Of a stretch of 64,000 bases of DNA, positions 1-33,869 are shown piece after piece; position 1 is the first letter of the stretch; every line of letters starts with the position of its first letter. Location: positions 5,988 through 69,987 of the forward strand of contig JBJOLT010000015.1 in assembly GCA_046045415.1 (NCBI GenBank), written 5' to 3'. The translations under genes were made by a program, and so were the position numbers. The DNA comes from Chloroflexota bacterium. GTDB taxonomy: Bacteria > Chloroflexota > Limnocylindria > Limnocylindrales > CSP1-4. The notes beneath the pieces are model-generated. The model did not search any database, was not told the DNA's origin, and saw nothing but the letters and a program-made list of their open reading frames with translations.

Positions 1-892
1 CGAAGAAGAAGGGGGTGAAGATCGCGCGGAGCGGGAGGATCTCGTGCTCCAGCTCCTTCGCGACCTCGGTCTCCGCGATGATCAGGCCGGCGACGAACGC
101 CCCGATGATCGCCGCGAGCCCGACGAAGTCGGCGAAGAGCGCGAGCGCGAGCATGAGGATGAGCGCGGGGACGAGCGGGGTCTCGGCGAACCGGGGGAAG
201 GTGAACGCCTCGCGCGGGAGGCCGCGGACTCGCCGCGCGACGGCGAACCCGAGGCCCACGAGGCCCACCGCGGAGACGGCGACGAGGAGGGTCGCGGCGG
301 AGACGTCCCCCTCCACGGCCCCGGTGAGGAGCCCGATCGCGATCAGCGCGAGGACGTCGTCGATCACGGCCGCCCCGAGGACGACCCGGGCGAACGGGCG
401 CGACAGGACCCCCATCTCCGCGAGGACCCGGCTCGTGATCCCGATGCTCGTGGCCGCGAGCGCGAGGCCGACGAAGGCGGCGCTCCCCGCCTCCTCGCCG
501 ACCGCGAGCGCGATCGCGACGCCCGCGCCGAGCGGGAGGAGCATCCCGATCACGGCGGTCGCCACCGCCGCCCGGCCGACGGCGAGGAGGTCGTCGGTCC
601 GGACCTCGAGCCCCACGGCGAAGAGGAGGATGACGACGCCGATCTCGGAGAAGGTGATCGCCGTCTCGCCCGGGACGACGAGCCCGAGCGCATGGGGACC
701 GACGAGGAAGCCGCCGACGAGCTCGCCGATGACGGCGGGCTGGCCGAGGCGCCGAGCGACCTCCTCGCCGAGCTTCGCCCCGACGAGGAGGATGAAGAGC
801 CCGAGGAGGACGTCGGTGGGCGCGCCGCCCGCCGCCGGCGCGGCGATACCGCCCGGCAGCGGCGGCGCGATGAGCGCGAGCAGCCCGTCCAT
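1..892 (-). CDS. Cation:proton antiporter (CPA2, Kef/NapA-type), N-terminal part. The C-terminus lies beyond the window start.
   Basis: Not in the ORF track because it runs off the window. Hand translation of the minus strand from ATG at 892 gives MDGLLALIAPPLPGG..VLLGLFILLVGAKLGEEVARRLGQPAVIGELVGGFLVGPHALGLV..GAAVIDDVLALIAIGLL. The product is multi-TM and matches the conserved N-terminal signature of the Na+/H+ and K+/H+ exchanger family. A GGGGAGGG Shine-Dalgarno lies about 4 nt upstream. Confidence 0.8.
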   Translation of the reverse strand, partial: MDGLLALIAPPLPGGIAAPAAGGAPTDVLLGLFILLVGAKLGEEVARRLGQPAVIGELVGGFLVGPHALGLVVPGETAITFSEIGVVILLFAVGLEVRTDDLLAVGRAAVATAVIGMLLPLGAGVAIALAVGEEAGSAAFVGLALAATSIGITSRVLAEMGVLSRPFARVVLGAAVIDDVLALIAIGLLTGAVEGDVSAATLLVAVSAVGLVGLGFAVARRVRGLPREAFTFPRFAETPLVPALILMLALALFADFVGLAAIIGAFVAGLIIAETEVAKELEHEILPLRAIFTPFFF

Positions 893-906
893 CGACCCTC
901 CCCGGC

Positions 907-932
907 GCGGGCGCCGGCCGTCCGGCGCCCGC
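907..932 (-). terminator. GC-rich stem-loop between the heliorhodopsin stop and the antiporter start. Possibly a U-tract-less terminator or attenuator.
   Basis: Perfect 11-bp stem GCGGGCGCCGG / CCGGCGCCCGC with a 4-nt loop. It starts 17 nt after the HeR stop (949-951) and is followed by the antiporter SD and ATG. There is no U-tract. Confidence 0.4.
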
Positions 933-948
933 GAGTCTCAGCGGCGGT

Positions 949-1770
949 TCAGCCGCCCGGGCGGAGCGTCCCCGTGAAGACCTGCCACGCGAGGAGGGTC
1001 TTCGCGATGAGGCTCATCGCCATGTACGTCTTCTCGCCGGCGAGGTAGTCCTTCCAGCGGCCCACCTGCTTGTACTGGAGGACCATCGTGATCGCGAAGA
1101 CGTTGAAGGCGAGGAAGAGCGACGCGATGATCGCGTAGACGAACGCCGGGATCTGCGCCTCCTCCGGGAGGTCCGGCTGGACGGAGTACGCGACGACGAG
1201 CCCGAGGATCGCGATCCACGGGATGATCCCGGCGATGCACCCGAAGATGTAGTGCTTCCAGTCGACCTTCTCGCCCTTGGCGAGCCGGCCCTCGTTCGCG
1301 GCCTCCATCGACCAGCCGAAGAGGTTCATCGCGACGTTGCAGCCGGCGATCGCGATGAGCGCCGAGAACTCGTTGATGAACGAGAGGCTGGAGATCGCGA
1401 GGATCATCACCGTCGAGCTGAACGCGTACTCCACCCAGCGGAGCGGGTTCATCCCCCGGGCGAGCCACCCCTCGTAGCGCGAGCGGAGGAACCAGCCGGC
1501 GGTCGCGTGGGCGAGCGCGCTCATCGCGAAGAAGCTCGCGATGAACCAGGCGAGCGGGATGTCGAAGAGGGCGAGCTGGACCTCCTCGAGGCCGGCGAAC
1601 GTGCCGTTCTCGAAGATCGGCTTCGCCGTCGTGATGAACGGCGCGAAGCGCGCCTCGGTCGTGCCGACCGCCACCATGACCACGGCCTGGATGCCGTGGA
1701 GGAGCGTGAGCGCGCGGTTCCACCGCGCGAGGGACCGGCTCCGGCCGGGATCGATCGCAGTCGCCGTCAT
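949..1770 (-). CDS. Heliorhodopsin (7-TM retinal protein, HeR family)
   Basis: The 273-aa ORF starts at ATG. It aligns full-length, from memory, with heliorhodopsin 48C12. Shared blocks are NPLRWVEYAFSSTVMIL (counterion Glu, E114 here), FGCIAGIIPWIAILG, PAFVYAIIASLFLAFN, LQYKQVGRWKDYLAGEKTYMAMSLIAKTLLAWQVFTGTL (Schiff-base Lys K257, codon AAG at 1002..1000), plus His25 and His88. An AAGGAG SD lies 11 nt upstream. Confidence 0.9.
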   Translation of the reverse strand: MTATAIDPGRSRSLARWNRALTLLHGIQAVVMVAVGTTEARFAPFITTAKPIFENGTFAGLEEVQLALFDIPLAWFIASFFAMSALAHATAGWFLRSRYEGWLARGMNPLRWVEYAFSSTVMILAISSLSFINEFSALIAIAGCNVAMNLFGWSMEAANEGRLAKGEKVDWKHYIFGCIAGIIPWIAILGLVVAYSVQPDLPEEAQIPAFVYAIIASLFLAFNVFAITMVLQYKQVGRWKDYLAGEKTYMAMSLIAKTLLAWQVFTGTLRPGG

Positions 1771-1864
1771 CGGTTCGTCGTCTCCTTCGAGCGCAACAAC
1801 ATTCCCGCGGGATGGGCCCGCACCCCTTCCGTTCGGCCGCGTCCTCGGCGCGGATGGCTCCCGG

Positions 1865-2965
1865 TCAGCGTCGGGCGACGTCCGGGTTCGGGAGGACGAT
1901 CTCGCCGACCGTCGCGACGAGGTCGTGGTACGACTTGATGAAGCCGCGGAGCGTCCGCATCGTCGCGCCGTACGAGTCGAACTCGTCGACCGTCATCCCG
2001 TCGGGCTCGTACGCGCGCCGGAAGTCCGGGATCCGCTCCTCGAGCTCCCGCACCGTCGCCGGGTCGACCGGCACCGCCATCCGCTCGACCGGGTCGATCC
2101 CGCTCGCGTTGAAGCGGGCCTGCCACGCGTGCGGCATCGTGAGGATGACGTCGCCGCCGACGAACTCGGTCCAGTGGAGCCGGTGGCGGTACGCGGCGGC
2201 GAGCGCCCGCGTCCGGTAGCCCCGTTCGCGGTAGATCGCGTAGGCCCGCTTGAAGGCGGCGACGCCCGCCCAGTTCGTCGCGTCGGGGTGGACCGCGATC
2301 GCGTCGCGCTCCACGAGGACCTTCATCCAGTCGTCGAGCCGCCCCACCATGAGCGTGCAGACGGGCGTCATCGACGCGACGTCGTGACCCGCCGCCTCGC
2401 GCCGGACGAGGCCGCGCTCCACCGCCTCGGCGACGGCGATCATCTGCGGGACGGTGAACGAGACGGTCGCGTTGACGCTCACCCCGTGGAAGGTCGCCTC
2501 CTCGATCGCGGCGATCCCGGCGCGCGTCGCGGGGAGCTTCACCTGGATGTTCGGCGCGAGCGCGGCGAAGCGGATCGCCTGCTCGAGCATCCGCTCCGGA
2601 TCGACGTAGAAGGTCGGGTTCGTCTGGAGCGAGAGGCGACCCTTGCGCCCCCCCTCTCGCTCGAAGACCGGCCAGAGGATCGCCGCGCCGCGGACGGCCA
2701 TCTCCTCGACGATCGCCCAGGTGAGGACCTCCTCGGTCCACGTCGGGTGCTCGGCGCGGAGGGCGAGGACCCGGTCGGTCCAGTGGGCCCGCTCCTTCTG
2801 CATCACCTCGAGGACGATCGACGGGTTCGAGGTGGCCCCGACGGCGCCCCGCTCGACGGCGTACGCGAGCTCCTCGACCGCGCACGAGTCGTTCCAGTAG
2901 TCGGTGAGGAAGCGGTCGGTCATCCGCTTCAGCGGGCTCTCGGTCGGCAGCATCGTCGTCGTCAT
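1865..2965 (-). CDS. Transaldolase-family class I aldolase/transferase (divergent, 366 aa)
   Basis: Contains ATSNPS, the active-site Lys context NIQVKLPAT, and MVGRLDDW (compare SPFVGRILDW in TalB). ATG start, 22 nt after the iolB stop. Confidence 0.8.
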   Translation of the reverse strand: MTTTMLPTESPLKRMTDRFLTDYWNDSCAVEELAYAVERGAVGATSNPSIVLEVMQKERAHWTDRVLALRAEHPTWTEEVLTWAIVEEMAVRGAAILWPVFEREGGRKGRLSLQTNPTFYVDPERMLEQAIRFAALAPNIQVKLPATRAGIAAIEEATFHGVSVNATVSFTVPQMIAVAEAVERGLVRREAAGHDVASMTPVCTLMVGRLDDWMKVLVERDAIAVHPDATNWAGVAAFKRAYAIYRERGYRTRALAAAYRHRLHWTEFVGGDVILTMPHAWQARFNASGIDPVERMAVPVDPATVRELEERIPDFRRAYEPDGMTVDEFDSYGATMRTLRGFIKSYHDLVATVGEIVLPNPDVARR

Positions 2966-2987
2966 CGTCGCGTCCCCATCGAGCGTC

Positions 2988-3827
2988 TCACGACCGCGGC
3001 GCGGCCGGGTCCCAGTCCATCAGCCAGCGGTGGTCCGGATCCACCGTGAAGTGCCAGGCCCGGTTCGGGCCCGCCATCACGTTCAGGTACCAGCCGTCGT
3101 ACCCGGCCGGTGCGCCGAACGGGTGATAGCCGCGCGGGACGAGGACGAGGTCGAGGTCGCCGACCGCGTAGGACTCGTCGAGCGAACGGTCCGCCGTGTA
3201 GACCCGCTGGAAGCCGAAGGCACCGGGCCGCGCGAACCGATAGAGGTAGAGCTCCTCGAGGAGCGCCTCGGTCGGCGGGTCCTCCGTATCGTGCTTGTGC
3301 GGCGGATAGCTCGACCAGTTCCCGCCCGGCGTGATCACCTCGAACGCGATGAGCCGGCCGGCCTCCATCGCGGGCGACATGAGGTGGTGGACCCGCCGCT
3401 CGGTGACGCCGCTCCCGCGCGTCTCGGCGCGGATCGCGTCGGCGGGGACGACCGCGGTCCGGTGGAGCGGGCCCGCCGGGGCCGAGGCGATCGCGACGAG
3501 CGAGTCGCGGGTCGCGGTCGCGGCGACGCCGACACCGGGTGCGACGAGGACGACCCCCGCGGGCGGGCCGTCGAAGACGGACGTCCGCGTCCCGACGGAC
3601 CCGGCGTCGACCCCGTCGAGCTCGATGCGGGCCGTCCCCTCGAGCACGAGGACGAGCCGCTCCCGGCCGTCCGCGGCAGGGCCGACCGAGCCGACCCGGT
3701 CGCCGTTCCGGAGCCGGTGGAGCTCGAGGCTCGTCCACGTCCAGCCGGCGTTCGACGGGTCGACCGCATGGACGAGCGACCCCGCGCCGGGACGGCGGAG
3801 GAGGGATCGGGCGCCCGCCGCGCTCAG
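2988..3827 (-). CDS. iolB: 5-deoxy-glucuronate isomerase IolB. Start uncertain, probably CTG at 3827.
   Basis: This is the C-terminal part of the over-extended ORF 2988..5462. It contains GGNWSSYPPHKHD, LEELYLYRF, FGFQRVYTADRSLDE, VPRGYHP and YLNVMAGP, matching B. subtilis IolB from memory. There is no in-frame ATG/GTG/TTG near the expected N-terminus (xSLLRRP). Confidence 0.85.
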   Translation of the reverse strand: MSAAGARSLLRRPGAGSLVHAVDPSNAGWTWTSLELHRLRNGDRVGSVGPAADGRERLVLVLEGTARIELDGVDAGSVGTRTSVFDGPPAGVVLVAPGVGVAATATRDSLVAIASAPAGPLHRTAVVPADAIRAETRGSGVTERRVHHLMSPAMEAGRLIAFEVITPGGNWSSYPPHKHDTEDPPTEALLEELYLYRFARPGAFGFQRVYTADRSLDESYAVGDLDLVLVPRGYHPFGAPAGYDGWYLNVMAGPNRAWHFTVDPDHRWLMDWDPAAPRS

Positions 3828-5725
3828 ATGAGCTCCCGACGCTGGGCGGCGAGTCCGCGCTCGTAGCGGTCGCGCGCCTCGCGGACGTTCTTCTGCGTGC
3901 TCGCCTCGGGGACCGGGACGTCCCACCAGCTCTCCTGGCCGGGGACGCGCCCCGCGGGGTCGGTCGGGACGACGACGACGGTCGGCCGGTCGCCGCCCCG
4001 CGCCCGGTCGAGGGCGGCGCGGATCTCGTCGGGTGTCCGCGCGGCGATCGCGACGGCTCCCATCGACTCGGCGTGGGCACGGAAGTCGATCGGGACCCAG
4101 TCGCCGACGAGCCGGTTCCGTGCCGGGTCGCGGAACCGGAGCTCGTTCCCGAAGTCGCGGACGCCCGAGCTCCGGGCGAGGTCCTGGATGCACTGGAACC
4201 CGTGGTTGTCGAGGACGACGATCGTGACGGGAAGCCGCTCGGCGACCGCGGTGACGATCTCGGAGTTCATCATCAGGTACGAGCCGTCGCCGACGATCAC
4301 GACGACCCGCCGGTCCGGCTCGGCGAGCTGGACGCCGAGCCCCGCCGCGATCTCGTAGCCCATGCACGAGTAGCCGTACTCGAGGTGGTACGCCTTCGGG
4401 TCCTCCGGCCGCCAGAGCTTCAGGAGGTCGCCCGGGAGGCTCCCCGCCGCGCAGACGACCGTCGCGTGGCCGCCGACCGCGTCGTTCACGATCCCGATGA
4501 TCTCCGGCTGGGCGAGGAGGCCGCCGTCGGCCGCGGCCGCCCCGCCGCTCCCGTGACGGTACCCGTCGACGCGGGCCTCCCACGTCCGCTTCTCCTCGGC
4601 GACCCGCTCCCGATAGCGGGGATCGGTCCCGGTCCAGCCGGCGGAGCGGAGCGCGGTCGCGAGCGCGACGAGGGCCTCGCGCGCGTCGGCGACGAGCGGC
4701 GTCGCCCGCATCTTCGCCGCGTCCATCCCGCCGATGTTGATCCCGATGAACGAGACGTCCGGATCCTGGAAGGCGGTCCGCGAGGCGGTGACGAAGTCGC
4801 CGAGCCGGCACCCCACCGAGACGACGAGGTCGGCGTCCCGTGCGAGCCGGTTCGCGGCGAGGCCGCCGGCGGACCCGACCGGGCCGACGTTCCACGGGTG
4901 GTCCCACGGGAGCGCGCCCTTCCCGGCCTGGCTCTCGGCGACGGGGATCCCGAAGTCGGTCGCGAGGGCGTCGAGCGCGGCGGACGCCTCGGCGTAGATG
5001 ACGCCGCCGCCGGCGACGACGATCGGCCGCTTCGCCGCCCGGATCCGCTCCACCGCCTCCGCGACGAACGCGGGCTCGGGGAGCGGCCGCCGGATCCGCC
5101 AGACCCGCTTCTCGAGGAACGAGACCGGCCAGTCGTACGCCTCCGCCTGGACGTCCTCCGGGAGGCTGATCGTCACCGCGCCCGTCTCGGCGGGGTCGGT
5201 GAGGATCCGGAACGCCTCGGGGAGGCTCGAGAGGAGCTGTTCCGGGCGGGAGATCCGGTCGAAGTAGCGCGAGACCGGCCGGAAGGCGTCGTTCGCGCTC
5301 ACGTCGCGCTCCACCGGGTGCTCGATCTGCTGGAGGACCGGATCGACGAGCCGGTTCGCGAAGTAGTCGGACGGGAGAAGGAGGACCGGGAGCCGGTTCA
5401 CCGTCGCGGTCGCGGCGCCGGTCACCATGTTCGTCGCCCCGGGCCCGATCGACGAGGTGCACGCGTAGGCGCGGAGCCGGTTCGCGTGCTTCGCGAAGGC
5501 GGTCGCGACGTGGACCTGCCCCTGCTCGTTCTGCGGCCGGTAGTACGGGAGCGCGACCTCGTCGCCGAGCTCCTCGAGCGCCTGGCCGAAGCCGGCGACG
5601 TTGCCGTGGCCGAAGATCCCCCAGACCCCGGCGATGAAGCGCCCCTCGCGTCCGTCCCGCTCGACGTGCTGCGCCGCGAGGTGGCGGACGAGCGCCTGCC
5701 CGACCGTGAGCCGTACCGTCTTCAC
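3824..5725 (-). CDS. iolD: 3D-(3,5/4)-trihydroxycyclohexane-1,2-dione acylhydrolase IolD (ThDP enzyme)
   Basis: 633 aa with a GTG start and an AGGAG SD. The N-terminus VRLTVGQALVRHL..GIFGHGNVAGFGQALEE and the block GSLPGDLLKLW..YHLEYGYSCMGYEIAAGLG..GDGSYLMMNSE match IolD. Confidence 0.9.
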   Translation of the reverse strand: MKTVRLTVGQALVRHLAAQHVERDGREGRFIAGVWGIFGHGNVAGFGQALEELGDEVALPYYRPQNEQGQVHVATAFAKHANRLRAYACTSSIGPGATNMVTGAATATVNRLPVLLLPSDYFANRLVDPVLQQIEHPVERDVSANDAFRPVSRYFDRISRPEQLLSSLPEAFRILTDPAETGAVTISLPEDVQAEAYDWPVSFLEKRVWRIRRPLPEPAFVAEAVERIRAAKRPIVVAGGGVIYAEASAALDALATDFGIPVAESQAGKGALPWDHPWNVGPVGSAGGLAANRLARDADLVVSVGCRLGDFVTASRTAFQDPDVSFIGINIGGMDAAKMRATPLVADAREALVALATALRSAGWTGTDPRYRERVAEEKRTWEARVDGYRHGSGGAAAADGGLLAQPEIIGIVNDAVGGHATVVCAAGSLPGDLLKLWRPEDPKAYHLEYGYSCMGYEIAAGLGVQLAEPDRRVVVIVGDGSYLMMNSEIVTAVAERLPVTIVVLDNHGFQCIQDLARSSGVRDFGNELRFRDPARNRLVGDWVPIDFRAHAESMGAVAIAARTPDEIRAALDRARGGDRPTVVVVPTDPAGRVPGQESWWDVPVPEASTQKNVREARDRYERGLAAQRRELI

Positions 5726-5771
5726 CCGATGCTCCTCTCGCGTCGCGACCCGCCGGGACGGACCGCTCGCG

Positions 5772-6776
5772 TCAGCGGTTCTTCCGCTCGTCGATGATGA
5801 TCGCGGCGACGATGATCACGCCCTTGACGACCTGCTGGTAGAAGGGCGAGACGTTCAGCAGGTCGAGGCCGTTGTTCATCACGCCGATGATCAGCGCTCC
5901 GACGACGGTCCCCCAGACGGTCCCGATCCCGCCCGCGAAGCTCGTCCCGCCGATGACGGCGGCCGCGATCGCGTCGAGTTCGTACCCCATCCCGAGGGCC
6001 GGCGTCGCCGACTCGACCCGGGCGGTGAGGACGACGCCGCCGAGGCCCGCGAGGAGCCCGGAGATCATGTAGATGAAGACCTTCGTCCGCGCGACGTTGA
6101 TCCCGGAGACCCGCGCCGCGGTCTCGTTCCCGCCGATCGCGTAGATGTGGCGGCCGAAGCGCGTGAAGTTCAGCATCACGTGCATGAGGACGACGACCGA
6201 GAGGAAGACGACGATCGGGACGGGGATCCCGAGGAGGTCGCCGCCGCCGATCCAGAGGAAGTCCTCGTTCAGCGTCGAGACCGGCCGCCCGTTCGAGTAG
6301 ATGTACCCGAAGCCGCGGGCCGCCGTCATCATCCCGAGCGTCGCGATGAACGGCGGGATCCTGAAGCCCGCGATGAGGAGGCCGTTCGTCATCCCGAGGA
6401 GGAGTCCGACGCCGAGGCCCGCGAGGACGGCGACGATCCCCGGGAGCTCGAGGCCCGGGTAGAGCGCCTGCTTCCAGCCGGGCTGCTGCACGAGGCTCGC
6501 GGCGACGAGCGCCGAGAAGCCGAGGATCGACCCGAGGGAGAGGTCGATCCCGAGCGTGATGATGCAGAGCATGACGCCGAGCGCGAGCAGGCCGATGACG
6601 GAGATCTGGCGCACGACGTTCAGCAGGTTCTGGCCCTGGACGAACGAGTTGTTCGGGGAGAAGACGGCGAGGATCGTGCACATCCCGAGGAAGATGAAGA
6701 CGATCAGGTACTTCCTCACGAAGCCGCTCGCGGCGGTCCGGTCGAAGCGGCCGGCGGCGGCCGGGGCAGCGGTCAT
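5772..6776 (-). CDS. Sugar ABC transporter permease (RbsC/IatP-like)
   Basis: 334 aa and multi-TM, with the typical AraH/RbsC family pattern (GIDLSLGS, NGRPV, ETAARVSGINV). GGAGGAAGAGG SD. Confidence 0.9.
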   Translation of the reverse strand: MTAAPAAAGRFDRTAASGFVRKYLIVFIFLGMCTILAVFSPNNSFVQGQNLLNVVRQISVIGLLALGVMLCIITLGIDLSLGSILGFSALVAASLVQQPGWKQALYPGLELPGIVAVLAGLGVGLLLGMTNGLLIAGFRIPPFIATLGMMTAARGFGYIYSNGRPVSTLNEDFLWIGGGDLLGIPVPIVVFLSVVVLMHVMLNFTRFGRHIYAIGGNETAARVSGINVARTKVFIYMISGLLAGLGGVVLTARVESATPALGMGYELDAIAAAVIGGTSFAGGIGTVWGTVVGALIIGVMNNGLDLLNVSPFYQQVVKGVIIVAAIIIDERKNR

Positions 6777-6791
6777 CGTCCTCTTCCTCCG

Positions 6792-8291
6792 TCAGGCCGC
6801 CGGGGCGGCGATCGTCGCCGCCTCGAGGACCTTCTCCTGCGTCACGTCCGCGCGGGTGAACTCGGCGGTGATCCGGCCCCCGGCCATCACGAGGACCCGG
6901 TCGCTCATCCCGAGGATCTCGGGGAGCTCCGACGAGACCATGAGGATCGCCTTCCCCTGCTTCGCGAGGCCGGACATGAGGCGGTGGATCTCCGCCTTCG
7001 CGCCGACGTCGATCCCGCGGGTCGGTTCGTCGATCATGAGGATCTCCGGGCCGGTGAGGAGCCAGCGCGAGACGAGCACCTTCTGCTGGTTCCCGCCGGA
7101 GAGGAGCCGGATCAGCTGGGCGAGGCTCGGCGTCTTGATCGCGAGCGCGTCCCGCTCGCGCGCGCACTCGACGTCCATCTGCCGCTTCCGGAGGAAGCCG
7201 CCGGGGCTGAACCGGGCGAGGCTCGCGACCGTCATGTTGTCGCGGACGGGGAGGACCCCCATGATCCCGGTCAGCTTCCGGTCCTCGGTGAGGAGGCCCA
7301 TCCCGGCGGCGATCGCGTCGGCGGGCTGACGGATCCGGATCGGCTTCCCCTCGACGAGGACCTCGCCGCGGTCCACCTTCGTGACGCCGAAGATCGCCTC
7401 GAGGACCTCGGTCCGCCCCGCGCCCATCAGCCCGGCGAGGCCGAGGATCTCGCCCCGGCGGAGGTCGAACGTGATGTCCTCGATGACGCCCTCGCGGGTG
7501 AGGCCGCGGACCGAGAGGACGACCTCGCCGATCGCGGCATGCTCCTTCGGGAAGAGGTGGGTCAGCTCGCGCCCGACCATGAGCGAGATGAGCTTCTGGC
7601 GGTCGAGCTCGCCGGCCTCCTTCGTGGCCACGTGCCGGCCGTCGCGGAAGACGGTGACGCGGTCGGCGATCCGGAAGACCTCGTCCATCTTGTGGGTGAT
7701 GTAGATGACCGCGACGCCGCTCCCGCGGAGCGACCGGATGATCCGGTGGAGGTGGGCGACCTCGCGCTCGCTGATCGCCGAGGTGGGCTCGTCCATGACG
7801 ATGAGCTTCGCGTCGTAGGAGATCGCCTTCGCGATCTCGACCATCTGCGTCTGCGCGACGCTCAGGGTCCGCATGACGGCGCGCGGGTCGATCTCGATCT
7901 CCCAGCGCGCGAAGAGCTCGCGGCTCGCGGCGATCATCCGGCGCCGGTCGACGAGACCGAGGCGGTTGAGCGGCTCCCGCCCGAGGAAGATGTTCTCCGC
8001 GACGATCATCTCGGGGACCGGCGCGAGCTCCTGGTGGATCATCGAGATCCCCAGCCGGAGCGCGGTCGCGCTGTCGGGGATCGCCACGTCCCGACCGTCG
8101 AAGTGGATCGTCCCGGCGTCGGCGTGGTAGATGCCGGCGAGGACCTTCATGAGCGTCGACTTGCCGGCGCCGTTCTCGCCCATGAGCGCATGGACCGTCC
8201 CGCGCTCGACCTCGAGGTGGACGTCGTCGAGCGCCTGGACGCCCGGGAACGCCTTCGAGATGCCCGTCATCCGGAGGAGCGGCTCACCCAT
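6792..8291 (-). CDS. Sugar ABC transporter ATP-binding protein (duplicated ATPase, RbsA/MglA/IatA-like)
   Basis: 499 aa with two ABC cassettes. It has Walker [10 protein letters not shown] and signature LSVAQTQ / LSGGNQQK. Confidence 0.9.
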
Positions 8292-8354
8292 CCCTGCCTC
8301 GCGACCTCAGGCTCGTCACACTGCCGCCGGTCACCGTGAACCGGCCCTGAAACG

Positions 8355-8390
8355 CCGTTCGGAGGCCCGGCGAACCGGGCCTCCGAACGG
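8355..8390 (-). promoter_or_regulatory. Intercistronic 16-bp perfect stem-loop with a UUCG tetraloop, between the binding-protein and ATPase genes
   Basis: CCGTTCGGAGGCCCGG cgaa CCGGGCCTCCGAACGG on the plus strand. On the transcribed minus strand the loop reads UUCG. It lies in the 152-nt spacer downstream of the SBP stop (8444) and upstream of the ATPase ATG (8291). Confidence 0.6.
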
Positions 8391-8443
8391 TACCACTCGC
8401 GGTGTTCGCTTCGACCGCCCCGGAGGGACGGCCTCGCGGGCTC

Positions 8444-9412
8444 CTAGTTGGCGCCCAGGTAGTCCGCGATGTTCGCCGGGGTCACGAGGACATACGGGAT
8501 GTCGACGTAATCCGGCACGGTCTTGCCGTTGATGAGGTCGACGGCCGCCTGGACGCCGCCGCCACCCTGGCCGCTCGCGTCCTGGAAGACGGTGACCTCG
8601 AGCTCGCCCGCCTGCATCGCGGCGAGCGCCTCGGAGGTCGCGTCGACACCGCCGACGAAGACCGTGTCGAGGAGCCCGGCCGCCTTGAGGGCGTTGATCG
8701 CGCCGAGCGCCATCTCGTCGTTGTTCGCGCAGACGACGTCACCGGCCTTGAGGATGCCCGACTGGATCCAGTTCTCGGTGATCGCCTGGCCCTTCGCGCG
8801 GTCCCAGTCGCCGGCCTGCGTCGCGGCGACCTTCATCCCGACCTTCGCCGCAACGTCGTTGCAGCCCTGGGTCCGGAGGACGGCCGCCTCGTTCGAGACC
8901 TGGCCCTGGAGGATGACGATGTCACCCTTGTTGCCGGCGAGCTTCGCGAGCTCCTCCATCTCGACCGTGCCCGCGTAGAGCGAGTCCGAGCCGACATAGG
9001 GGACCCCGGCCTGCGACGGGTTCCGGTTGACGTAGACGAGCGGGATCCCCGCCGCCTTCGCCGCATCGGTCATCGGGCCGGCGGCGCTGGTGTCGACCGG
9101 GACGACGACGATCGCGGAGACCTTCTGCGAGATGAAGTTCTCGACCTGGCTGAGCTGGGTCGCGACGTCATCCTTCGCGTCGGTGATGACGAGCTCGACG
9201 CCGAGCTCCTCCGCCTTCGCCTTCATGCCGTCCTGGACGCGGCTGAGGAACGTGTCGCTGTTCGGGAACGCGGCCCCGATCGTGATGTCGCCGCCGCCGC
9301 TCCCGCCGTCGGCGGGGGCCTCGGACTCGGTCGTGCTCCCGGAGCACGCCGCGACGACGAGCATCGCGGCCATCAGCAGGCTCGCGAGCTTCCCGGTGCG
9401 CTGGAACGCCAT
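8444..9412 (-). CDS. Sugar (inositol/ribose-type) ABC transporter substrate-binding lipoprotein
   Basis: 322 aa. It has a signal peptide with lipobox LVVAAC and a periplasmic-binding-protein type I pattern. AGAGGAGGA SD. Confidence 0.9.
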   Translation of the reverse strand: MAFQRTGKLASLLMAAMLVVAACSGSTTESEAPADGGSGGGDITIGAAFPNSDTFLSRVQDGMKAKAEELGVELVITDAKDDVATQLSQVENFISQKVSAIVVVPVDTSAAGPMTDAAKAAGIPLVYVNRNPSQAGVPYVGSDSLYAGTVEMEELAKLAGNKGDIVILQGQVSNEAAVLRTQGCNDVAAKVGMKVAATQAGDWDRAKGQAITENWIQSGILKAGDVVCANNDEMALGAINALKAAGLLDTVFVGGVDATSEALAAMQAGELEVTVFQDASGQGGGGVQAAVDLINGKTVPDYVDIPYVLVTPANIADYLGAN

Positions 9413-9496
9413 CTACGGATTCCTCCTCTGTCTCACCGATCGGCCGGTCCGTGCCCCGAGGGTCACGCGTCCCGTCGGTCGGTCATCGATTGCCGG

Positions 9497-9526
9497 ACGC
9501 TACCGAGCCGGCATCGCACGCGTCAA
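9497..9526 (-). promoter_or_regulatory. Candidate SigA-type promoter for the ABC/iol operon
   Basis: On the minus strand: TTGACG (9526..9521), an 18-nt spacer, then TAGCGT (9502..9497). It sits in a locally lower-GC 228-nt intergenic region, about 80 nt upstream of the SBP ATG. Confidence 0.35.
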
Positions 9527-9580
9527 GCGATGACGCGCGAGATGGCGACACTTTACGGTCTCCGGGCGCGCTCGTCATCA

Positions 9581-9602
9581 CCGATCCGCGACCGATCCGC
9601 GA
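9581..9602. repeat. Perfect 11-bp tandem direct repeat (CCGATCCGCGA x2) upstream of the candidate promoter
   Basis: Read directly: ccgatccgcga ccgatccgcga at 9581-9591 and 9592-9602. It could be an operator, but no regulator gene was recognised in the window. Confidence 0.5.
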
Positions 9603-9639
9603 CCGCGCCGAGTCCGACGGGCGCCGGGGGACGGGGCCC

Positions 9640-10569
9640 TCAGCGCGCCGGGAGCGGCCGACCGGGACCGAGGCCGATCCCCTCGAAGTAGACCCGGGTC
9701 CGGGTCGCGACGGGGAGCGGAGCGTCGAGCGCGCAGCCGAGCATGTCCTGCTCGACGATGCAGAAGAGGTCGCGGTCGAGCGCGGCGAGGGCGTCGAGGA
9801 CCGGCTCCATCGCCGGCTCCCCCTTCGGCGGCTCGATCATCACGCCGCGGCGGCAGGCCGGAGCGAAGCCCCACTGCTCGGCCTGGGCGCGGTCGCGGAC
9901 CGCCGGGTCCACCTGCTTGAGGTGGACGTACGCGATCCGCTCCGGGAAGTCGCGGATCAGCGCGAGGCTGTCGGCGCGGCCGTAGGCGACGTGGCCGGTG
10001 TCGAGGCAGAGGTTGACGTAGCGCGGGTCGGTCCCGTCGAGGAGGCGGACGATCTCGTCGTGCGTCTCGACATGGCTGTCCGCGTGCGAGTGGTAGACGA
10101 GCTTGAGGCCGTGCTGCTCGAGGAGGTACTTCCCGAGCTCGTCGTGGAGCGCCATCAGGTCGCGCCAGCCGTCGTCGGCGAGCGACCGGTCGATCGCCGG
10201 CTTGCCGTCGAGGTCGGTCGTCCCCTCGGGGAGGATCACGACGTACTCGGCGCCGAGCGGGAGGAGCGTCCGCGCCTCGGCGTCGCACGCCTCCTTCGCC
10301 TCCTGCCAGGCGGCACGCCCCCGCTGGAGCTTCGTCTGGACGGTCCCGCCGGTGAGCGTCAGGCCGCGCCGGCCCAGCTCCTCCTTGAGGCGGACCGGAT
10401 CGCTCGGGTTGTAGCCGTAGGGGCCGAGCTCCGTGTAGCGGTAGCCGGCCTTCGGGACCTCGTCGAGGTACTGCTCCCACGGGACCTGCTCGGGCGTGTA
10501 CGGGAACCAGACGCCCCAGGAGTCCGGGGCCGTCCCGAGGTGGAGCTTCGAGTAGTCGCGCGGGCTCAC
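9640..10569 (-). CDS. iolE: Xylose-isomerase-like TIM-barrel protein, IolE-like inosose dehydratase
   Basis: LGTAPDSWGVW, LVYHSHADSHVETHDEIVRLLDGTDPRYVNLCLDTGHVAY, VHLKQV and CIVEQD parallel B. subtilis IolE. I chose GTG at 10569 because GGAGGAGG lies 5 nt upstream. The ATG at 10617 used by the ORF track has no SD. Confidence 0.8.
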   Translation of the reverse strand: MSPRDYSKLHLGTAPDSWGVWFPYTPEQVPWEQYLDEVPKAGYRYTELGPYGYNPSDPVRLKEELGRRGLTLTGGTVQTKLQRGRAAWQEAKEACDAEARTLLPLGAEYVVILPEGTTDLDGKPAIDRSLADDGWRDLMALHDELGKYLLEQHGLKLVYHSHADSHVETHDEIVRLLDGTDPRYVNLCLDTGHVAYGRADSLALIRDFPERIAYVHLKQVDPAVRDRAQAEQWGFAPACRRGVMIEPPKGEPAMEPVLDALAALDRDLFCIVEQDMLGCALDAPLPVATRTRVYFEGIGLGPGRPLPAR

Positions 10570-10729
10570 GTGGTCCTCCTCCGTGCCGCGCCGGCGCCGC
10601 GTGAGCGCGTGGTCCATCTCGGCAACGGGACGAGACGCTATCGACCGGCCCGGCCCGTGTCAATCGCGGGGGGTCGCGCCGGGTCGGGGACGTCGTGCGG
10701 CCGCGTGGCGCGGGGCGCATCCTCTCGGC

Positions 10730-14717: not shown

Positions 14718-14794
14718 TGGTCGGGGCGGCCGGATTCGAACCGGCGATCTCGTGCTCCCAAAGCACGCGCGTTGCCAGACTACGCCACGCCCCG
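14718..14794 (-). tRNA. tRNA-Pro (anticodon UGG), with encoded CCA
   Basis: Cloverleaf folded by hand: acceptor CGGGGCG/CGCCCCG, D-stem GCGT/ACGC, anticodon stem CGTGC/GCACG with loop TTTGGGA, T-arm GCCGG-TTCGAAT-CCGGC, discriminator A plus CCA. 77 nt. Confidence 0.9.
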
Positions 14795-19864: not shown

Positions 19865-21166
19865 CTACCGCATCGACCAGCCGGCGCCGAGCCTGAGGAC
19901 CTGACGCGGGCGGAGCTGCCGGCCGCGGGAGGTGTTCGTCGTGTCGACGACGAGCGAGGCCGTCGCATAGACCGCCGCCCAGTCGATCGCGGCATGGGGC
20001 GTGAGCGCCACGACGACATCCGATCCGGCGAGGAGCGGCTCGAGCGCCGTCGAGGTCCGCTCGGTCCCGGCGGCATCGGCGAAGCGAGGGACGTGCGGGT
20101 CGTGGTACTCGACCGCCGCGCCGCGCTCGGCGAGGAGCGCGATCACGTCCGCCGCCGGCGAGTTCCGGGGATCCCGGACGTCGGCCTTGAAGGCGACCCC
20201 GAGGACCCCCACCCGCGCTCCCTTGAGGGCGCGGCCGCGGTCGTTCAGCGCCTCGGCGACGAGGTCCGCGACGTGGCGCGGCATCGCGAGGTTGATGTCG
20301 CCGGCGAGCTCGACGAACCGGTCGACGAAGTCGAACTCGCGGGCCCGCCACGAGAGGTAGTAGGGATCGACCGGGATGCAGTGGCCGCCGACCCCCGGCC
20401 CGGGCCGGAACGGCATGAAGCCGAACGGCTTCGTCGCCGCCCCGTCGATCACCTCCCAGACGTCGAGCCCCATCCGCTCGCAGAGGAGGGCGAGCTGGTT
20501 GACGAGCGCGATGTTCACGTTCCGGAAGACGTTCTCGAGGAGCTTGGCGAGCTCGGCCGCGTCGGGCGAGCTCATCTCGACGACCGTCGCGTTGATCCGG
20601 CGGAGGAGCGTCGCCGCCCGGGCGGTCGCCGCGGGTCCGAGGCCGCCGACGAGCCGCGGGACGTCGCGCCGCGCGCTCGCCGGGTCGCCGGGGTTCACCC
20701 GCTCGGGTGCGAAGGCGAGGTCGAAGTCCCGGCCCGCGGCGAGTCCGCCCGCCTCGAGCGCGGCCCGGAACGGGCCGGTCGTCGTCCCGGGGAAGGTCGT
20801 CGACTGGAGGACGACGAGCTGGCCTCGCCGGAGCGAGCCGCGGACGAGCGCGGCGGCCGAGAGGACCGGCTCGAGATCGGGGTCCTTCGAGCGGGTGATC
20901 GGCGTGGGGACGCAGACGAAGAGCCCGTCGACCGCCCCGAGGTCGGCATCGTCGACGTGGGCGATCGACAGGCCGGTCCCGAGCGCCGCCCGGAGCCGCG
21001 CGTCGTCGACGTCGTCGATCGGCGAACGTCCCGCCGCCAGCTCGGCGACGCGCTCGCGGCTCGCATCGACGCCGACGACCTCGAGGCCCGCCTCGACGAA
21101 CGAGATCGCGAGCGGGAGCCCGACGTAGCCGAGCCCGACGATCGCGAGGCGCTGGTCGGCGGTCAT
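19865..21166 (-). CDS. UDP-glucose/GDP-mannose dehydrogenase-family nucleotide-sugar dehydrogenase (copy 1, WecC/TviB-like)
   Basis: 433 aa with [30 protein letters not shown] and [13 protein letters not shown] at 21166 overlaps the upstream GT stop (ATGA). Confidence 0.85.
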
Positions 21167-22380
21167 CCGGACGAGGATACCGGACGTCCCGGGCCGCTCA
21201 TCAGGCGATCGACGACCGCGAGGTAGCGCGGCGCCTCCGCCTCCCACGAGCGCTCCCGGGCGAGCGCGAGCGTCCGTCCGACCCGCGCCGCCCGCGCCTC
21301 GGGCTCGTCGACGAGCGAGAGGATCGCGGCGGCCATCGCGGCGGCGTCCCCCGGCTCGTACGCGAGGACGCTCCCGGGCGGGCAGGTCGCCTCGACCATC
21401 GGGAGCCGGGTCGCGACGACCGGCTTCCCCATCGCCGCGTACTCGAAGATCTTCGTGGAGAGGCTGACGTCCGTGAAGGCGTCGCGGCGGGTCGGGGCGA
21501 GCCCGACGTCGGCGGCCGCGAGGACGGCGGGGACCTCCTCGAGCGGGATCCGGCCGTGGAGGCGGACGCGGTCGGCGATCCCGCGCGCGGCGGCGAGGGC
21601 GGCGAGCGCGGGGGCGGTGTCGCCCCGGCCGTAGATGTCGAACACGAGCGCGAGCTCCGGGCGCCGCTCGCGGATGAGCGCGACCGCCTCGACGGCCACG
21701 TCGACCTCGTAGGTCGGCGTGAGGGCGCCCGCGTAGACGAGCCGGAGCGTCCCGTCGGCCATGAACGCGCGGACCGGATGGGCCGCGGGGTCGAAGCGGG
21801 CGAGGGCGGCGAGGTTCCGGACGACGCTCACCTTCCGCACCGGGACGCCGGCGGCGAGGAGCCGCGCCTCCAGCGCCTCGTTCACGACGAGGACCTCCGA
21901 TGCGATCGCGACGGCGAGCCGCTCCTGGAGGACGAGGAGCGCGTGGGCGACGGGGTTCGCGGCCGCCGGGAAGCGGCTCCGGAAGAACTCGGGCATCGCC
22001 TCGTGGAAGTCGACGAGGAGCGGGACCCCGGCGAGCCGGAGCGGGAGCGCCGCGGCCGCGAGCAGGTCGGGGATCGTGTGGACCTGGACGAGCCCGTACC
22101 GGCGGCGGCGGTGCGCCCGGACGAGCGCGATCGTCGAGCGGACGAGGAAGTCGAGGTACTCGGCGGCGTACCGGCCGATCCCCGCCCCCTGGTGGCGCTG
22201 GACCCCGAGCCGGGCGACCCGGACCCCGGCGATCGTCGCCTCCGACGGCTCCCCCGGCCGCCGGAGCGCGATGACGTCGACCTCGCGGCCGGCGGCGACG
22301 AGCGCCTCGGCCTCGCGCCTGACGCGCGGATCCTCGTCGTAGTACGAGTGGACGATCATGCAGACCGGCGGGCGGCTCAC
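21163..22380 (-). CDS. Glycosyltransferase, GT4-type (GT-B fold)
   Basis: 405 aa with a C-terminal [17 protein letters not shown] motif. GTG start at 22380 or ATG at 22359. Confidence 0.85.
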
Positions 22381-22440
22381 CCGCTGATGCTATCGGCTCG
22401 GCCGCCGCCACCGTGCGGGGGCGTGCTACCGTGCGCGCCG

Positions 22441-23334
22441 ATGGAGAGAAGCCCCGCGCCGGCCGCCGAGGACGGCGTCGCGCTCCGCTCGACCGCCGAC
22501 CGGCCGGGACCGCTCGGGCTGATCCGCGAGGCGATCGCCGAGACCGCGTCCCGCCGCCGGCTGATCCGCTACCTCGTCCAGGCGGACCTGAAGAAGAAGG
22601 GGTCGGACACCCTCCTCGGGAACGTCTGGTGGATCCTCGACCCGCTCCTCCAGATGGCGGTCTACGTCGTCCTCGTCACCGTCATCTTCCAGCGGACGGT
22701 CCCGGACTACCCGCTCTTCATCTTCGCGGCGATCCTCCCGTGGAAGTGGTACACGAGCAGCGTGAGCGACGCGATCGGCTCGGTCGTCGGCCAGGAGCGG
22801 CTCATCAAGCAGATCCACTTCCCGAAGCTGATCCTCCCGACCGCGACGACGGTCGCGGGGATCGCGAACTTCGGCTTCGGGCTCGTCGCCCTCGCCGGGC
22901 TCCTCGTCGTCTTCTACGCGGACCGCGCGTCGCCGTACCTCCTCCTCCTCCCGGCGATCGCCGCGGTCCAGCTCGTCCTGACGCTCGCGGTCGCGTACGT
23001 CGTCTCCGCCGTGAACGTCTTCTTCCGCGACGTCGCGAACGTGAGCCGGCACGCGCTCCGGATCTGGTTCTACCTCTCGCCCGGGCTCTACGGCGCCGAC
23101 GCGATCGAGGCGCTCAGCGAGACGAACCCGCTCGTCGCCGACCTCATGCGGCTCAACCCGTTCTACACGCTCTTCGAGTCGTACCGGGCGGTGATCTACG
23201 GGACGGCGGCCGGCGGGCCGACGAGCCCGCCGTGGGCGGAGCTCGCCGCGTGGGGCCTCGGTTCGGTCGTCCTCCTCGCGCTCGCGACGTTCGTCTTCAA
23301 GCGGCTCGAGCCCGCGTTCGCGAAGGTCCTCTGA
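22441..23334 (+). CDS. ABC-2 type polysaccharide/teichoic-acid exporter permease (Wzm/TagG-like)
   Basis: 297 aa with DLKKKGSDTLLGNVWWILDPLLQM and 6 predicted TM segments. It is the internal part of ORF 21556..23334. Confidence 0.85.
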   Translation: MERSPAPAAEDGVALRSTADRPGPLGLIREAIAETASRRRLIRYLVQADLKKKGSDTLLGNVWWILDPLLQMAVYVVLVTVIFQRTVPDYPLFIFAAILPWKWYTSSVSDAIGSVVGQERLIKQIHFPKLILPTATTVAGIANFGFGLVALAGLLVVFYADRASPYLLLLPAIAAVQLVLTLAVAYVVSAVNVFFRDVANVSRHALRIWFYLSPGLYGADAIEALSETNPLVADLMRLNPFYTLFESYRAVIYGTAAGGPTSPPWAELAAWGLGSVVLLALATFVFKRLEPAFAKVL

Positions 23335-29497: not shown

Positions 29498-29525
29498 GCG
29501 GAGAGCCTACCCGCCGCCGGGCGGG

Positions 29526-32005: not shown

Positions 32006-32015
32006 CGGGCGGGGC

Positions 32016-33787: not shown

Positions 33788-33863
33788 GGGTGGGAAGGGC
33801 TCCTTCGACGGCGCGCGACGGGGGCTCGGCGAGCGCGGCGCGAGCGCGACCGAGGCGTGGCGG

Positions 33864-33869
33864 AGTATA
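33864..33869 (-). promoter_or_regulatory. Candidate -10 box (TATACT) for the minus-strand wbp/glycosyltransferase operon
   Basis: This is the only AT-rich hexamer in the 178-nt spacer upstream of the acetyltransferase gene. It fits TAnnnT. No convincing -35. Confidence 0.3.

What the first reader, a model, noticed from the sequence alone, without database searches (positions are those of the whole stretch)
949..1770. A heliorhodopsin gene in a high-GC actinobacterial-type chromosome
The 273-aa 7-TM product is collinear over its whole length with the founding heliorhodopsin 48C12. The Schiff-base Lys lies in SLIAKTLLAWQ (K257, AAG at 1002..1000). The counterion Glu lies in RWVEY (E114, GAG at 1431..1429). 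His25 and His88 occupy the positions of the two conserved HeR histidines, and the FGCIAGIIPW and VFTGTL blocks are present. It has no type-1 rhodopsin TM3 motif (DTD/DTE/NDQ/NTQ). HeRs have inverted topology, slow photocycles and mostly unknown physiological outputs, so each new genomic context is informative.
Basis: partly seen in the sequence, partly recalled or inferred. Interest (0 to 1): 0.85.

Follow-up and report, generated by a model that had tools for sequence, protein, structure and literature searches.

The report
Ordinary heliorhodopsin gene in Chloroflexota
The gene is a genuine, intact heliorhodopsin (a retinal-binding light receptor), but it is a routine member of a well-described family, its host is a freshwater Chloroflexota bacterium rather than an actinobacterium, and its gene neighbourhood gives only a weak hint of what it controls.

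Summary
The ORF at 949..1770 (-) exists exactly as described and is a heliorhodopsin. It gives full-length hits to Pfam PF18761 (267 bits) and the NCBIfam HeR equivalog (256 bits, cutoff 100). It is 41% identical to 48C12, and 31 of 35 structurally important residues are identical, including K257, E114, H25, H88 and S253. The predicted 7-TM fold matches only solved HeRs strongly, and charge bias predicts a cytoplasmic N-terminus.

The "actinobacterial" label is wrong. The same protein and the window's GuaA are NCBI entries from one Chloroflexota MAG contig, and the nearest relatives are Ca. Limnocylindrales (Ellin6529). An HeR cluster for that lineage was described in 2021.

The residues that mark viral proton-transporting HeRs are absent, so the gene most likely encodes a slow-cycling sensory or regulatory HeR.

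The gene lies between a transaldolase-like gene of an inositol-catabolism cluster and a NapA-type CPA2 Na+/H+ antiporter. A conserved 12-bp GC hairpin sits in the 56-nt gap before the antiporter. This pairing is kept only in relatives with at least 86% HeR identity. It is absent from 80 clade genomes and from six antiporter orthologues. Clade relatives instead sit beside glutamine synthetase or SDR-fusion genes, which are known partner classes.

Verdict: a real feature, a new member of a known kind, and low interest.

The parts
949..1770 (-). Heliorhodopsin gene, 273 aa. Predicted helices: A 8-35, B 73-94, C 109-129 (E114), D 135-157, E 171-196, F 209-235, G 239-266 (K257). The AB loop forms a beta-hairpin at 45-67.
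   Evidence: GC3 0.99, like the neighbouring genes. dN/dS 0.15-0.39 against relatives.
1782..1787 (-). AAGGAG Shine-Dalgarno-like motif 11 nt upstream of the HeR start codon.
   Evidence: Read. The start is supported by the conserved MTAT(A/T)IDP N-termini of 273-aa relatives.
906..933 (-). Perfect 12-bp G+C hairpin (CGCGGGCGCCGG-ACGG-CCGGCGCCCGCG) between the HeR stop codon (951..949) and the antiporter ribosome-binding site and start. It has no T tract. It is a probable intercistronic attenuator or mRNA-stabilising element.
   Evidence: It is invariant in the 86-100% relatives while 8 flanking intergenic positions vary. It is one of only 3 perfect hairpins of 12 bp or more in the window (0.3 expected). 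All three are intergenic and all three lie shortly downstream of stop codons of minus-strand reading frames.
1..892 (-). 5' part (297 codons) of a NapA-type CPA2 Na+/H+ antiporter gene, cut by the window start. The full length is 408 aa in the identical contig L086. The start ATG is at 892..890, preceded by GGGGAGGG.
   Evidence: T. thermophilus NapA 4bwz, E 6.6e-73.
1865..2965 (-). Transaldolase-family gene immediately upstream (94-nt gap). It is the last gene of an inositol-catabolism and sugar ABC transporter cluster.
   Evidence: The same neighbour is present in the 97-100% relatives but not in the 86% relative.

Best explanation
The gene encodes a canonical prokaryotic heliorhodopsin of a freshwater, very high-GC Chloroflexota bacterium of the Limnocylindria/Ellin6529 type.

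Shown here: it has the HeR sequence signature, the predicted fold and the predicted N-in topology. It keeps the complete set of residues that hold the protonated retinal Schiff base (K257, counterion E114, S253, S84, S118). It also keeps the residues that line the cytoplasmic water cavity (H25, H88, N18, N108, R111, Y99, Y115, E246).

Inferred from characterised HeRs: it binds all-trans retinal and absorbs green light. A rough estimate is the low 540s nm, because it carries Met at the Q213 tuning site and Ala at the A240 site. It isomerises retinal and dwells for a long time in an O-like state. It moves no ions across the membrane. It acts as a sensory or regulatory rhodopsin whose positively charged cytoplasmic face modulates a partner protein.

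The partner in this organism is unknown. The gene is probably transcribed together with the downstream NapA-type Na+/H+ antiporter through an intercistronic hairpin, which would give more HeR than antiporter. That adjacency is lineage-specific, so a functional coupling is only a possibility.
For: Family membership. Residues: 31 of 35 structurally important 48C12 residues listed by Kovalev et al. 2020 (PMC7049168) are identical, and the four changes are conservative or common variants (D127E, I142N, Q213M, S242T). Fold: 7 helices plus the AB beta-hairpin, pLDDT 76.5. The ten best Foldseek PDB matches are all HeRs (E 8e-15 to 1e-12), and type-1 rhodopsins follow at E 5e-4 or worse. Topology: 12 K+R on the N-terminal side against 3 on the other side. 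Purifying selection: dN/dS 0.15-0.39. Not a transporter: the V2HeR3 hallmarks E191 and W195 (PMC9448325) are L218 and F222 here, as in 48C12. Regulatory mode: HeRs bind and regulate glutamine synthetase, photolyase and an ABC exporter (PMC9529153, PMC9769723, PMC11109279). In 74 clade relatives the recurrent neighbours are an SRPBCC+NAD-epimerase/SDR fusion (22 loci) and glutamine synthetase (20 loci). Co-transcription: same strand and a 56-nt gap. The hairpin ends 13 nt before the antiporter ATG, which leaves no room for a separate promoter.
Against: No experiment exists, so retinal binding, the spectrum and the photocycle are all inferred. No retinal-synthesis gene (blh or crt) was noticed in the window; this was not searched systematically, and HeR genomes often lack blh. 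None of the known partner classes is adjacent or present in the 64 kb. The AF2 model is only moderately confident, with TM-scores to solved HeRs of 0.65-0.73. The hairpin could be a full terminator, which would make HeR the last gene of its transcript.
Confidence: 0.8

Rival explanations
1. The HeR is a light switch for the adjacent NapA-type CPA2 Na+/H+ antiporter. The two membrane proteins would be made from one transcript, and the photoactivated HeR would bind the antiporter and change its activity. This would couple pH or Na+ homeostasis to light and would be a new partner class.
For: Same strand, 56-nt gap and no room for a separate promoter. The HeR-hairpin-antiporter unit is kept in the 86% relative even though the upstream gene differs. 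HeRs are known to modulate a membrane transporter (PMC11109279).
Against: The adjacency is found only in relatives with at least 86% HeR identity. It is absent from the 74% relative and from all 80 GTDB species loci at 61-74% identity. It is also absent beside all six antiporter orthologues at 67-77% identity. In the 86% relative the whole downstream block (antiporter, MFS, luciferase-like gene) is syntenic, so the retained pair may be plain synteny. Antiporters are not among the ten recurrent HeR neighbour groups. The hairpin may terminate transcription.
Confidence: 0.1
2. The HeR regulates a soluble enzyme encoded elsewhere in the genome, as its clade relatives suggest. The candidates are glutamine synthetase or the SRPBCC+SDR oxidoreductase. 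Its position here would be a neutral rearrangement.
For: 20 of 74 clade loci have a glutamine synthetase gene next to HeR, and 22 of 74 have the SRPBCC+NAD-epimerase fusion on the same strand. HeR-GS regulation has been shown in an actinobacterium (PMC9529153). An SDR group is listed by Cho et al. 2024.
Against: Neither gene is in the window, and the rest of the genome was not available. More than half of the clade loci have neither neighbour. The GS genes are mostly convergent with HeR rather than co-transcribed.
Confidence: 0.25
3. The protein is a light-driven or light-gated ion transporter, as in the viral V2HeR3 group or type-1 pumps. It would energise or depolarise the membrane, and the antiporter would use or balance the resulting gradient.
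For: Some HeRs transport protons (PMC9448325). A neighbouring H+-coupled antiporter would fit an ion-gradient theme.
Against: The hallmark Glu (V2HeR3 E191) and Trp (W195) are Leu218 and Phe222 here. The positions of V2HeR3 E205 and E215 are Q232 and E246, exactly as in the non-transporting 48C12. There is no DTD/DTE/NDQ/NTQ motif and no type-1 rhodopsin Pfam hit.
Confidence: 0.03
4. The gene is an inactive relic, or an opsin without chromophore in this host because no retinal is available.
For: No retinal-biosynthesis gene was noticed in the 64 kb. blh is rare near HeRs.
Against: The ORF is intact and every retinal-pocket and Schiff-base residue is kept. dN/dS is below 0.4. Codon usage is native. 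Identical or 97%-identical copies recur in several independent metagenome samples.
Confidence: 0.05

Closest known systems
Heliorhodopsin 48C12 (actinobacterial fosmid, Lake Kinneret; PDB 6SU3, 6SU4, 6UH3)
   Same: Collinear over residues 12-271 with 41% identity. The Schiff-base Lys, the single Glu counterion, the Ser at the bR-D212 position, both histidines, the water-cavity residues, P172 of the helix-E pi-bulge and the AB beta-hairpin proline are all the same.
   Different: The AB and DE loops are longer by 6 and 5 residues, and 4 residues are inserted in helix E and the EF region. Q213 is Met, a natural blue-shifting variant (PMC7807009). I142 is Asn; Ile and Asn occur 23:17 in the clade. 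The host phylum is different.
HeR cluster C18 of Bulzu et al. 2021 (exclusively aerobic Chloroflexota, Ellin6529 lineage)
   Same: The nearest relatives of the window's HeR (65-74% identity) are almost all Chloroflexota or Ca. Limnocylindrales MAGs. Ellin6529 is, to my knowledge, the older name for that lineage. The cluster is described.
   Different: I did not place the window's sequence in their tree, so membership of C18 is inferred from taxonomy only.
Regulatory HeRs with known partners: AbHeR-glutamine synthetase, TfHeR-photolyase, OcHeR-OmrDE ABC exporter
   Same: Same family. The cytoplasmic face is likewise positively charged. Clade relatives sit next to GS, SDR, MerR-B12 and photolyase genes.
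   Different: None of those partner genes is beside this HeR or anywhere in the window. The neighbour here is a CPA2 antiporter, which is not a described partner class.
Proton-transporting viral HeR V2HeR3
   Same: HeR fold and counterion Glu.
   Different: It lacks the E191/W195 gate; this protein has L218/F222.

Membership tests
Heliorhodopsin (Pfam PF18761 / NCBIfam NF038020 HeR) | Full-length match to the family profile above the curated cutoff | tested here: met
   PF18761: 267 bits against a cutoff of 26.7, profile 1-242 of 242. NF038020 equivalog: 255.8 bits against a cutoff of 100, profile 1-244 of 244.
Heliorhodopsin (Pfam PF18761 / NCBIfam NF038020 HeR) | Retinal Schiff-base lysine in the seventh helix (K241 of 48C12) | tested here: met
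   K257 aligns with K241 and lies in predicted helix G, 239-266.
Heliorhodopsin (Pfam PF18761 / NCBIfam NF038020 HeR) | Single Glu counterion in helix C (E107), with Ser instead of Asp at the bR-D212 position (S237) | tested here: met
   E114 lies in helix C, 109-129. S253 corresponds to S237, and the stabilising serines are S84 and S118.
Heliorhodopsin (Pfam PF18761 / NCBIfam NF038020 HeR) | Conserved histidines of helices A and B (H23, H80) and the polar Schiff-base cavity residues | tested here: met
   H25, H88, N18, Y99, N108, R111, Y115 and E246 are all identical to 48C12 (residue list from PMC7049168).
Heliorhodopsin (Pfam PF18761 / NCBIfam NF038020 HeR) | 7-TM fold closest to solved HeRs, with the long AB-loop beta-hairpin | tested here: met
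   AF2 model with 7 helices plus strands 45-54 and 57-67, pLDDT 76.5. The Foldseek top 10 are all TaHeR or 48C12, with TM-scores 0.65-0.73. Model confidence is moderate.
Heliorhodopsin (Pfam PF18761 / NCBIfam NF038020 HeR) | Inverted topology (N-terminus cytoplasmic) | tested here: met
   Positive-inside count: 12 K+R on the N-terminus/BC/DE/FG side against 3 on the AB/CD/EF/C-terminus side. This is a prediction only, with no experimental test.
Heliorhodopsin (Pfam PF18761 / NCBIfam NF038020 HeR) | Binds all-trans retinal and has a slow photocycle without ion transport | not testable with these tools
   This needs expression, spectroscopy and flash photolysis.
Type-1 microbial rhodopsin (ion pumps, channels, sensory rhodopsins) | Family profile match and an Asp-based TM3 motif (DTD/DTE/NDQ/NTQ) | tested here: not met
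   No type-1 rhodopsin family at E<=1 in Pfam. Helix C reads RWVEYAFSSTV. Structural matches to type-1 rhodopsins have E 5e-4 or worse and 7-14% identity.
Proton-transporting (viral, V2HeR3-type) heliorhodopsins | Glu at the V2HeR3 E191 position in TM6, with Trp at the W195 position | tested here: not met
   L218 and F222 occupy these positions.
HeR-partner operons described so far (GS, NAD+ synthetase, photolyase, MerR, TerC, ABC exporter, SDR, alpha/beta hydrolase, DUF2177, DUF2238) | One of these genes adjacent to HeR on the same strand | tested here: not met
   The neighbours are a transaldolase-like gene and a CPA2 antiporter. tblastn with clade GS, SRPBCC-SDR, photolyase and MerR-B12 representatives finds nothing in the window. 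The other groups (NAD+ synthetase, TerC, alpha/beta hydrolase, DUF2177, DUF2238) were not searched for beyond the two immediate neighbours.

The most novel reading that the evidence does not exclude
In this Limnocylindria-like lineage the heliorhodopsin has been recruited as a light-dependent regulator of the co-transcribed NapA-type CPA2 Na+/H+ antiporter. That would be a partner class not yet described for HeRs and would link light to pH or sodium homeostasis. The conserved intercistronic hairpin would set the HeR:antiporter ratio.
Probability: 0.08. Interest if true: 0.55.

Novelty: new member of a known kind. Interest (0 to 1): 0.15.

Why it matters
It matters little for discovery. The family, its presence in Chloroflexota and its typical neighbourhoods are already published. 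The exact protein is already in GenBank, labelled only "hypothetical protein".

Three modest practical points follow. First, the record can be annotated as heliorhodopsin HeR. Second, the host assignment should read Chloroflexota, not Actinobacteria. Third, the HeR-hairpin-NapA arrangement is a cheap candidate to include if someone screens HeR partners beyond the known ten groups.

The Ile/Asn polymorphism at the retinal-pocket position 149 in this clade is a possible natural colour-tuning site worth one mutant.

Tried and rejected
(1) I tested whether the HeR-antiporter adjacency is conserved. tblastn of the window's antiporter, transaldolase and iolB against 80 GTDB loci carrying related HeRs found no adjacent copy. 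Only 5 distant Kef-type hits appeared, 2.4-4.8 kb from the HeR gene, three on the opposite strand upstream and two downstream. These hits are unrelated in arrangement, so I treated them as background.

(2) I ran the reverse test. A scan of metagenome contigs with the full antiporter gave six orthologues at 67-77% identity, and none has an HeR beside it.

(3) I looked for a conserved promoter or operator upstream of HeR. The consensus scan found nothing. The upstream intergenic region is not conserved in the 86% relative, and its predicted fold is no better than shuffled sequence.

(4) I tested the hairpin as a clade-wide HeR terminator. Only 6 of 78 relatives have a perfect hairpin of 9 bp or more after the stop codon, and their sequences are unrelated. 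I rejected it as a family feature.

(5) The fold of the whole 81-nt spacer is not significant against shuffles in this 74% GC background (z = -1.4). The case for the hairpin rests on its perfect stem, its rarity (3 observed against 0.3 expected) and its invariance, not on the energy z-score.

(6) An Rfam scan of the window found only tRNA-Pro.

(7) I searched supplements for antiporter neighbours. None is held for Bulzu 2021, and there are no mentions in the Cho 2024 files that are held, some of which are truncated.

(8) My first crude ORF caller mis-called genes in high-GC loci. I repeated it with a stricter codon-position GC filter.

Full report
**Observation**

The minus-strand ORF 949..1770 (ATG start, 273 aa) is present exactly as described. 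Reading the reverse strand confirms the two named codons: AAG at 1002..1000 is K257 and GAG at 1431..1429 is E114. It also shows an AAGGAG motif 11 nt upstream of the start. The other named motifs are all in the translation: H25, H88, FGCIAGIIPW and VFTGTL. Codon-position GC (GC3 0.99) matches the neighbouring genes, so the gene is native to this 74.5% GC sequence.

**Identity**

- The protein matches Pfam PF18761 (Heliorhodopsin) end to end, at 267 bits and E 1.7e-79.
- It matches the NCBIfam equivalog NF038020 'heliorhodopsin HeR' at 255.8 bits against a cutoff of 100.
- No type-1 rhodopsin family appears even at E<=1.
- Against PDB sequences, all six hits reported at E<=1 are heliorhodopsin entries, including 48C12 (E 2e-47) and Thermoplasmatales TaHeR (E 6.5e-46).

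A pairwise alignment with 48C12 gives 41% identity. I checked the 35 residues that Kovalev et al. 2020 (PMC7049168) single out as structurally important. Thirty-one are identical:

- the Schiff-base lysine (K257);
- the counterion (E114) and its stabilising serines (S84, S118, S253);
- both histidines (H25, H88);
- the cavity residues N18, Y99, N108, R111, Y115 and E246;
- the E156/Q232/Y242/W112 cluster;
- P44 and P184.

The four differences are D127E, S242T, Q213M and I142N. Met at the Q213 position is found in all 40 clade sequences, and the paper itself calls it a frequent variant. At the I142 position, Asn and Ile occur 17:23 in the clade.

**Fold and topology**

An AlphaFold2 model built on 40 homologues has pLDDT 76.5 and pTM 0.72. 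It shows seven helices (8-35, 73-94, 109-129, 135-157, 171-196, 209-235, 239-266) and the HeR-typical beta-hairpin in the AB loop (45-67).

Foldseek against the PDB returns ten HeR chains first (E 8e-15 to 1e-12, TM 0.65-0.73). After a gap of about nine orders of magnitude it returns type-1 rhodopsins at 7-14% identity.

Lys+Arg counts are 12 on the side of the N-terminus and 3 on the other side. This predicts the cytoplasmic N-terminus that defines HeRs.

dN/dS against three relatives is 0.15-0.39, so the gene is under purifying selection.

**Host**

- The window's GMP synthase is 100% identical to NCBI MFM2105278.1, 'hypothetical protein RL338_310 [Chloroflexota bacterium]', on a 71,334-bp contig.
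- The HeR itself is an exact match to MFM2105238.1, 'hypothetical protein RL338_270 [Chloroflexota bacterium]', also on a 71,334-bp contig.
- The next GuaA relatives (89-90%) that carry names are Ca. Limnocylindrales or Chloroflexota.
- The 80 closest HeR loci in GTDB species genomes (61-74% identity) are almost all Chloroflexota or Limnocylindrales MAGs.
- Identical or 97%-identical copies occur in several metagenome samples, one of them labelled a freshwater metagenome.

So the gene is already public, although unannotated. Its host is a Chloroflexota bacterium of the Limnocylindria (Ellin6529) type.

**Context**

All genes at this end of the window run on the minus strand.

- Upstream of HeR lies an inositol-catabolism and sugar-transport cluster. 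It comprises a xylose-isomerase-like TIM barrel gene, a sugar-binding protein, an ABC ATPase, a permease, iolD, iolB and a transaldolase-family gene. The gap to HeR is 94 nt.
- Downstream, 56 nt after the HeR stop, starts a Na_H_Exchanger gene that is cut by the window edge.
- In the identical contig L086 this gene is 408 aa and is followed by a convergent MFS gene.
- It belongs to CPA2, and its closest solved relative is Thermus NapA (E 6.6e-73).

**The spacer hairpin**

The spacer holds a perfect 12-bp G+C hairpin at 933..906, with an ACGG loop and no T tract. It ends 13 nt before the antiporter ATG, with the GGGGAGGG ribosome-binding site in between. The hairpin is invariant in relatives of 86-100% HeR identity, while eight flanking spacer positions vary.

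Perfect hairpins of 12 bp or more are rare in the window: three are observed against 0.3 expected from a first-order Markov model. All three are intergenic and lie shortly downstream of stop codons of minus-strand reading frames. One sits between the sugar-binding-protein and ATPase genes of the ABC operon.

I read these hairpins as U-tract-poor attenuators or mRNA-stabilising elements. No separate promoter fits between the hairpin and the antiporter start. The antiporter is therefore most simply expressed by read-through from HeR, at a lower level. This is inference, not demonstration.

**Is the context informative?**

I tested the HeR-antiporter pairing in both directions.

- It is kept in relatives at 97-100% identity (L081, L082, L086, L087).
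- It is kept in the 86% relative L083, where the upstream gene is no longer the transaldolase.
- In L083 the whole downstream block (antiporter, MFS, luciferase-like gene) is syntenic, so this is ordinary synteny among close relatives.
- The 74% relative has a different neighbourhood.
- None of the 80 GTDB loci has the antiporter, the transaldolase or iolB next to HeR.
- None of six antiporter orthologues at 67-77% identity from metagenomes has an HeR nearby.

In 74 clade loci the recurrent HeR neighbours are different:

- an SRPBCC+NAD-epimerase/SDR fusion on the same strand (22 loci);
- glutamine synthetase, mostly convergent (20 loci);
- an amino-acid permease (13 loci);
- DUF4397, a further secreted protein I did not scan, SDR, MerR-B12 and photolyase genes.

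Glutamine synthetase, SDR, MerR and photolyase are among the neighbour groups already catalogued by Cho et al. 2024 (PMC11109279). Photolyase and cobalamin-binding proteins also appear in the neighbour analysis of Chazan et al.. None of the four I searched for (GS, the SRPBCC-SDR fusion, photolyase, MerR-B12) is present in the window. The context here is therefore lineage-specific and only weakly informative.

**Mechanism**

Prokaryotic HeRs characterised so far do not transport ions. They have slow photocycles and act by binding partner proteins: glutamine synthetase, photolyase and an ABC exporter.

The viral proton-transporting HeRs require a Glu at V2HeR3 position 191, together with W195 (PMC9448325). 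This protein has L218 and F222 there, and Q232/E246 at the E205/E215 positions, exactly like the non-transporting 48C12.

I therefore commit to a sensory or regulatory HeR. It would bind retinal at K257 with the E114 counterion, photoisomerise it, and dwell in a long-lived signalling state. Output would pass through the Arg/Lys-rich cytoplasmic loops.

From the two natural colour-tuning sites reported by Kim et al. 2021 (PMC7807009), Met229 and Ala256 suggest an absorption maximum a few nm to the blue of 48C12's. This is a rough inference, and N149 may also contribute.

The partner is unknown. I put about 0.25 on a GS or SDR enzyme encoded elsewhere, as in clade relatives. I put about 0.1 on the adjacent NapA-type antiporter.

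**Comparison and novelty**

The family has been known since 2018. More than 4,000 database proteins match this one at E<=1e-10. HeRs in Chloroflexota are documented. Bulzu et al. describe an HeR cluster (C18) made up only of aerobic Ellin6529 Chloroflexota. The protein passes every sequence-testable membership criterion and shows no unusual domain, fusion or motif.

It is a new, so far unannotated member of a known kind. The one non-standard element is the hairpin-linked NapA-type antiporter directly downstream. That is not among the described partner classes, but the evidence for a functional link is weak.

**Verdict**

The host assignment is wrong and the novelty is overstated. Interest is 0.15.

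Noticed in passing
window 906-933 (-): A perfect 12-bp G+C hairpin with an ACGG loop lies between the HeR stop and the antiporter ribosome-binding site. It is invariant in 86-100% relatives while the flanking spacer bases vary, and it has no T tract.
   Followed up: yes
window 8355-8390 (-) and 61908-61938 (-): These are the only other perfect hairpins of 12 bp or more in the window (16-bp and 12-bp stems). Both lie shortly downstream of stop codons of minus-strand reading frames. The first sits between the sugar-binding-protein and ATPase genes of an ABC operon. This suggests that U-tract-poor hairpins are this genome's usual terminator or attenuator form.
   Followed up: partly
window 1865-10617 (-): A myo-inositol-catabolism-like cluster lies directly upstream of HeR. 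It contains iolD, iolB, a transaldolase-family gene scoring well below the NCBIfam transaldolase cutoffs, a sugar ABC transporter (binding protein, fused ATPase, permease) and a xylose-isomerase-like TIM barrel gene.
   Followed up: partly
HeR residue 149 (window codon 1326..1324); alignment A2: The retinal-pocket position equivalent to 48C12 I142 is polymorphic in the clade: Ile in 23 and Asn in 17 of 40 sequences. The window has Asn. It is a possible natural colour-tuning site that did not come up in the colour-tuning paper I searched.
   Followed up: partly
loci L001-L080 (HeR at about 6001-6810): In Limnocylindria-type genomes HeR is repeatedly flanked by a fused SRPBCC (polyketide cyclase-like) + NAD-dependent epimerase/SDR protein (22 of 74 loci, same strand) and by a glutamine synthetase-family gene (20 of 74, mostly convergent). 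An amino-acid permease often lies beyond the GS gene.
   Followed up: partly
window 21163-34796: A cell-envelope polysaccharide cluster. By eye it contains an ABC-2 type exporter pair (about 22.4-24.2 kb, +), what look like three tandem paralogous glycosyltransferase genes (about 24.2-28.2 kb, -, GC up to 79%), a UDP-GlcNAc 2-epimerase-like gene, a nucleotide-sugar dehydrogenase, a DegT-type aminotransferase and an acetyltransferase. These assignments come from reading the translations only.
   Followed up: no
window 50995-52047 (+): A GAF+GGDEF diguanylate cyclase gene (Pfam). It is the only signalling protein noticed in the window, about 49 kb from HeR, so no link is implied.
   Followed up: no
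NCBI records MFM2105238.1 and MFM2105278.1: The source MAG names even GMP synthase a 'hypothetical protein'. The deposited annotation therefore seems to carry no functional names, and that would explain why the HeR is unlabelled.
   Followed up: no
window 14718-14794 (-): A single tRNA-Pro (TGG) gene. It is the only Rfam or ARAGORN hit in the 64 kb.
   Followed up: no
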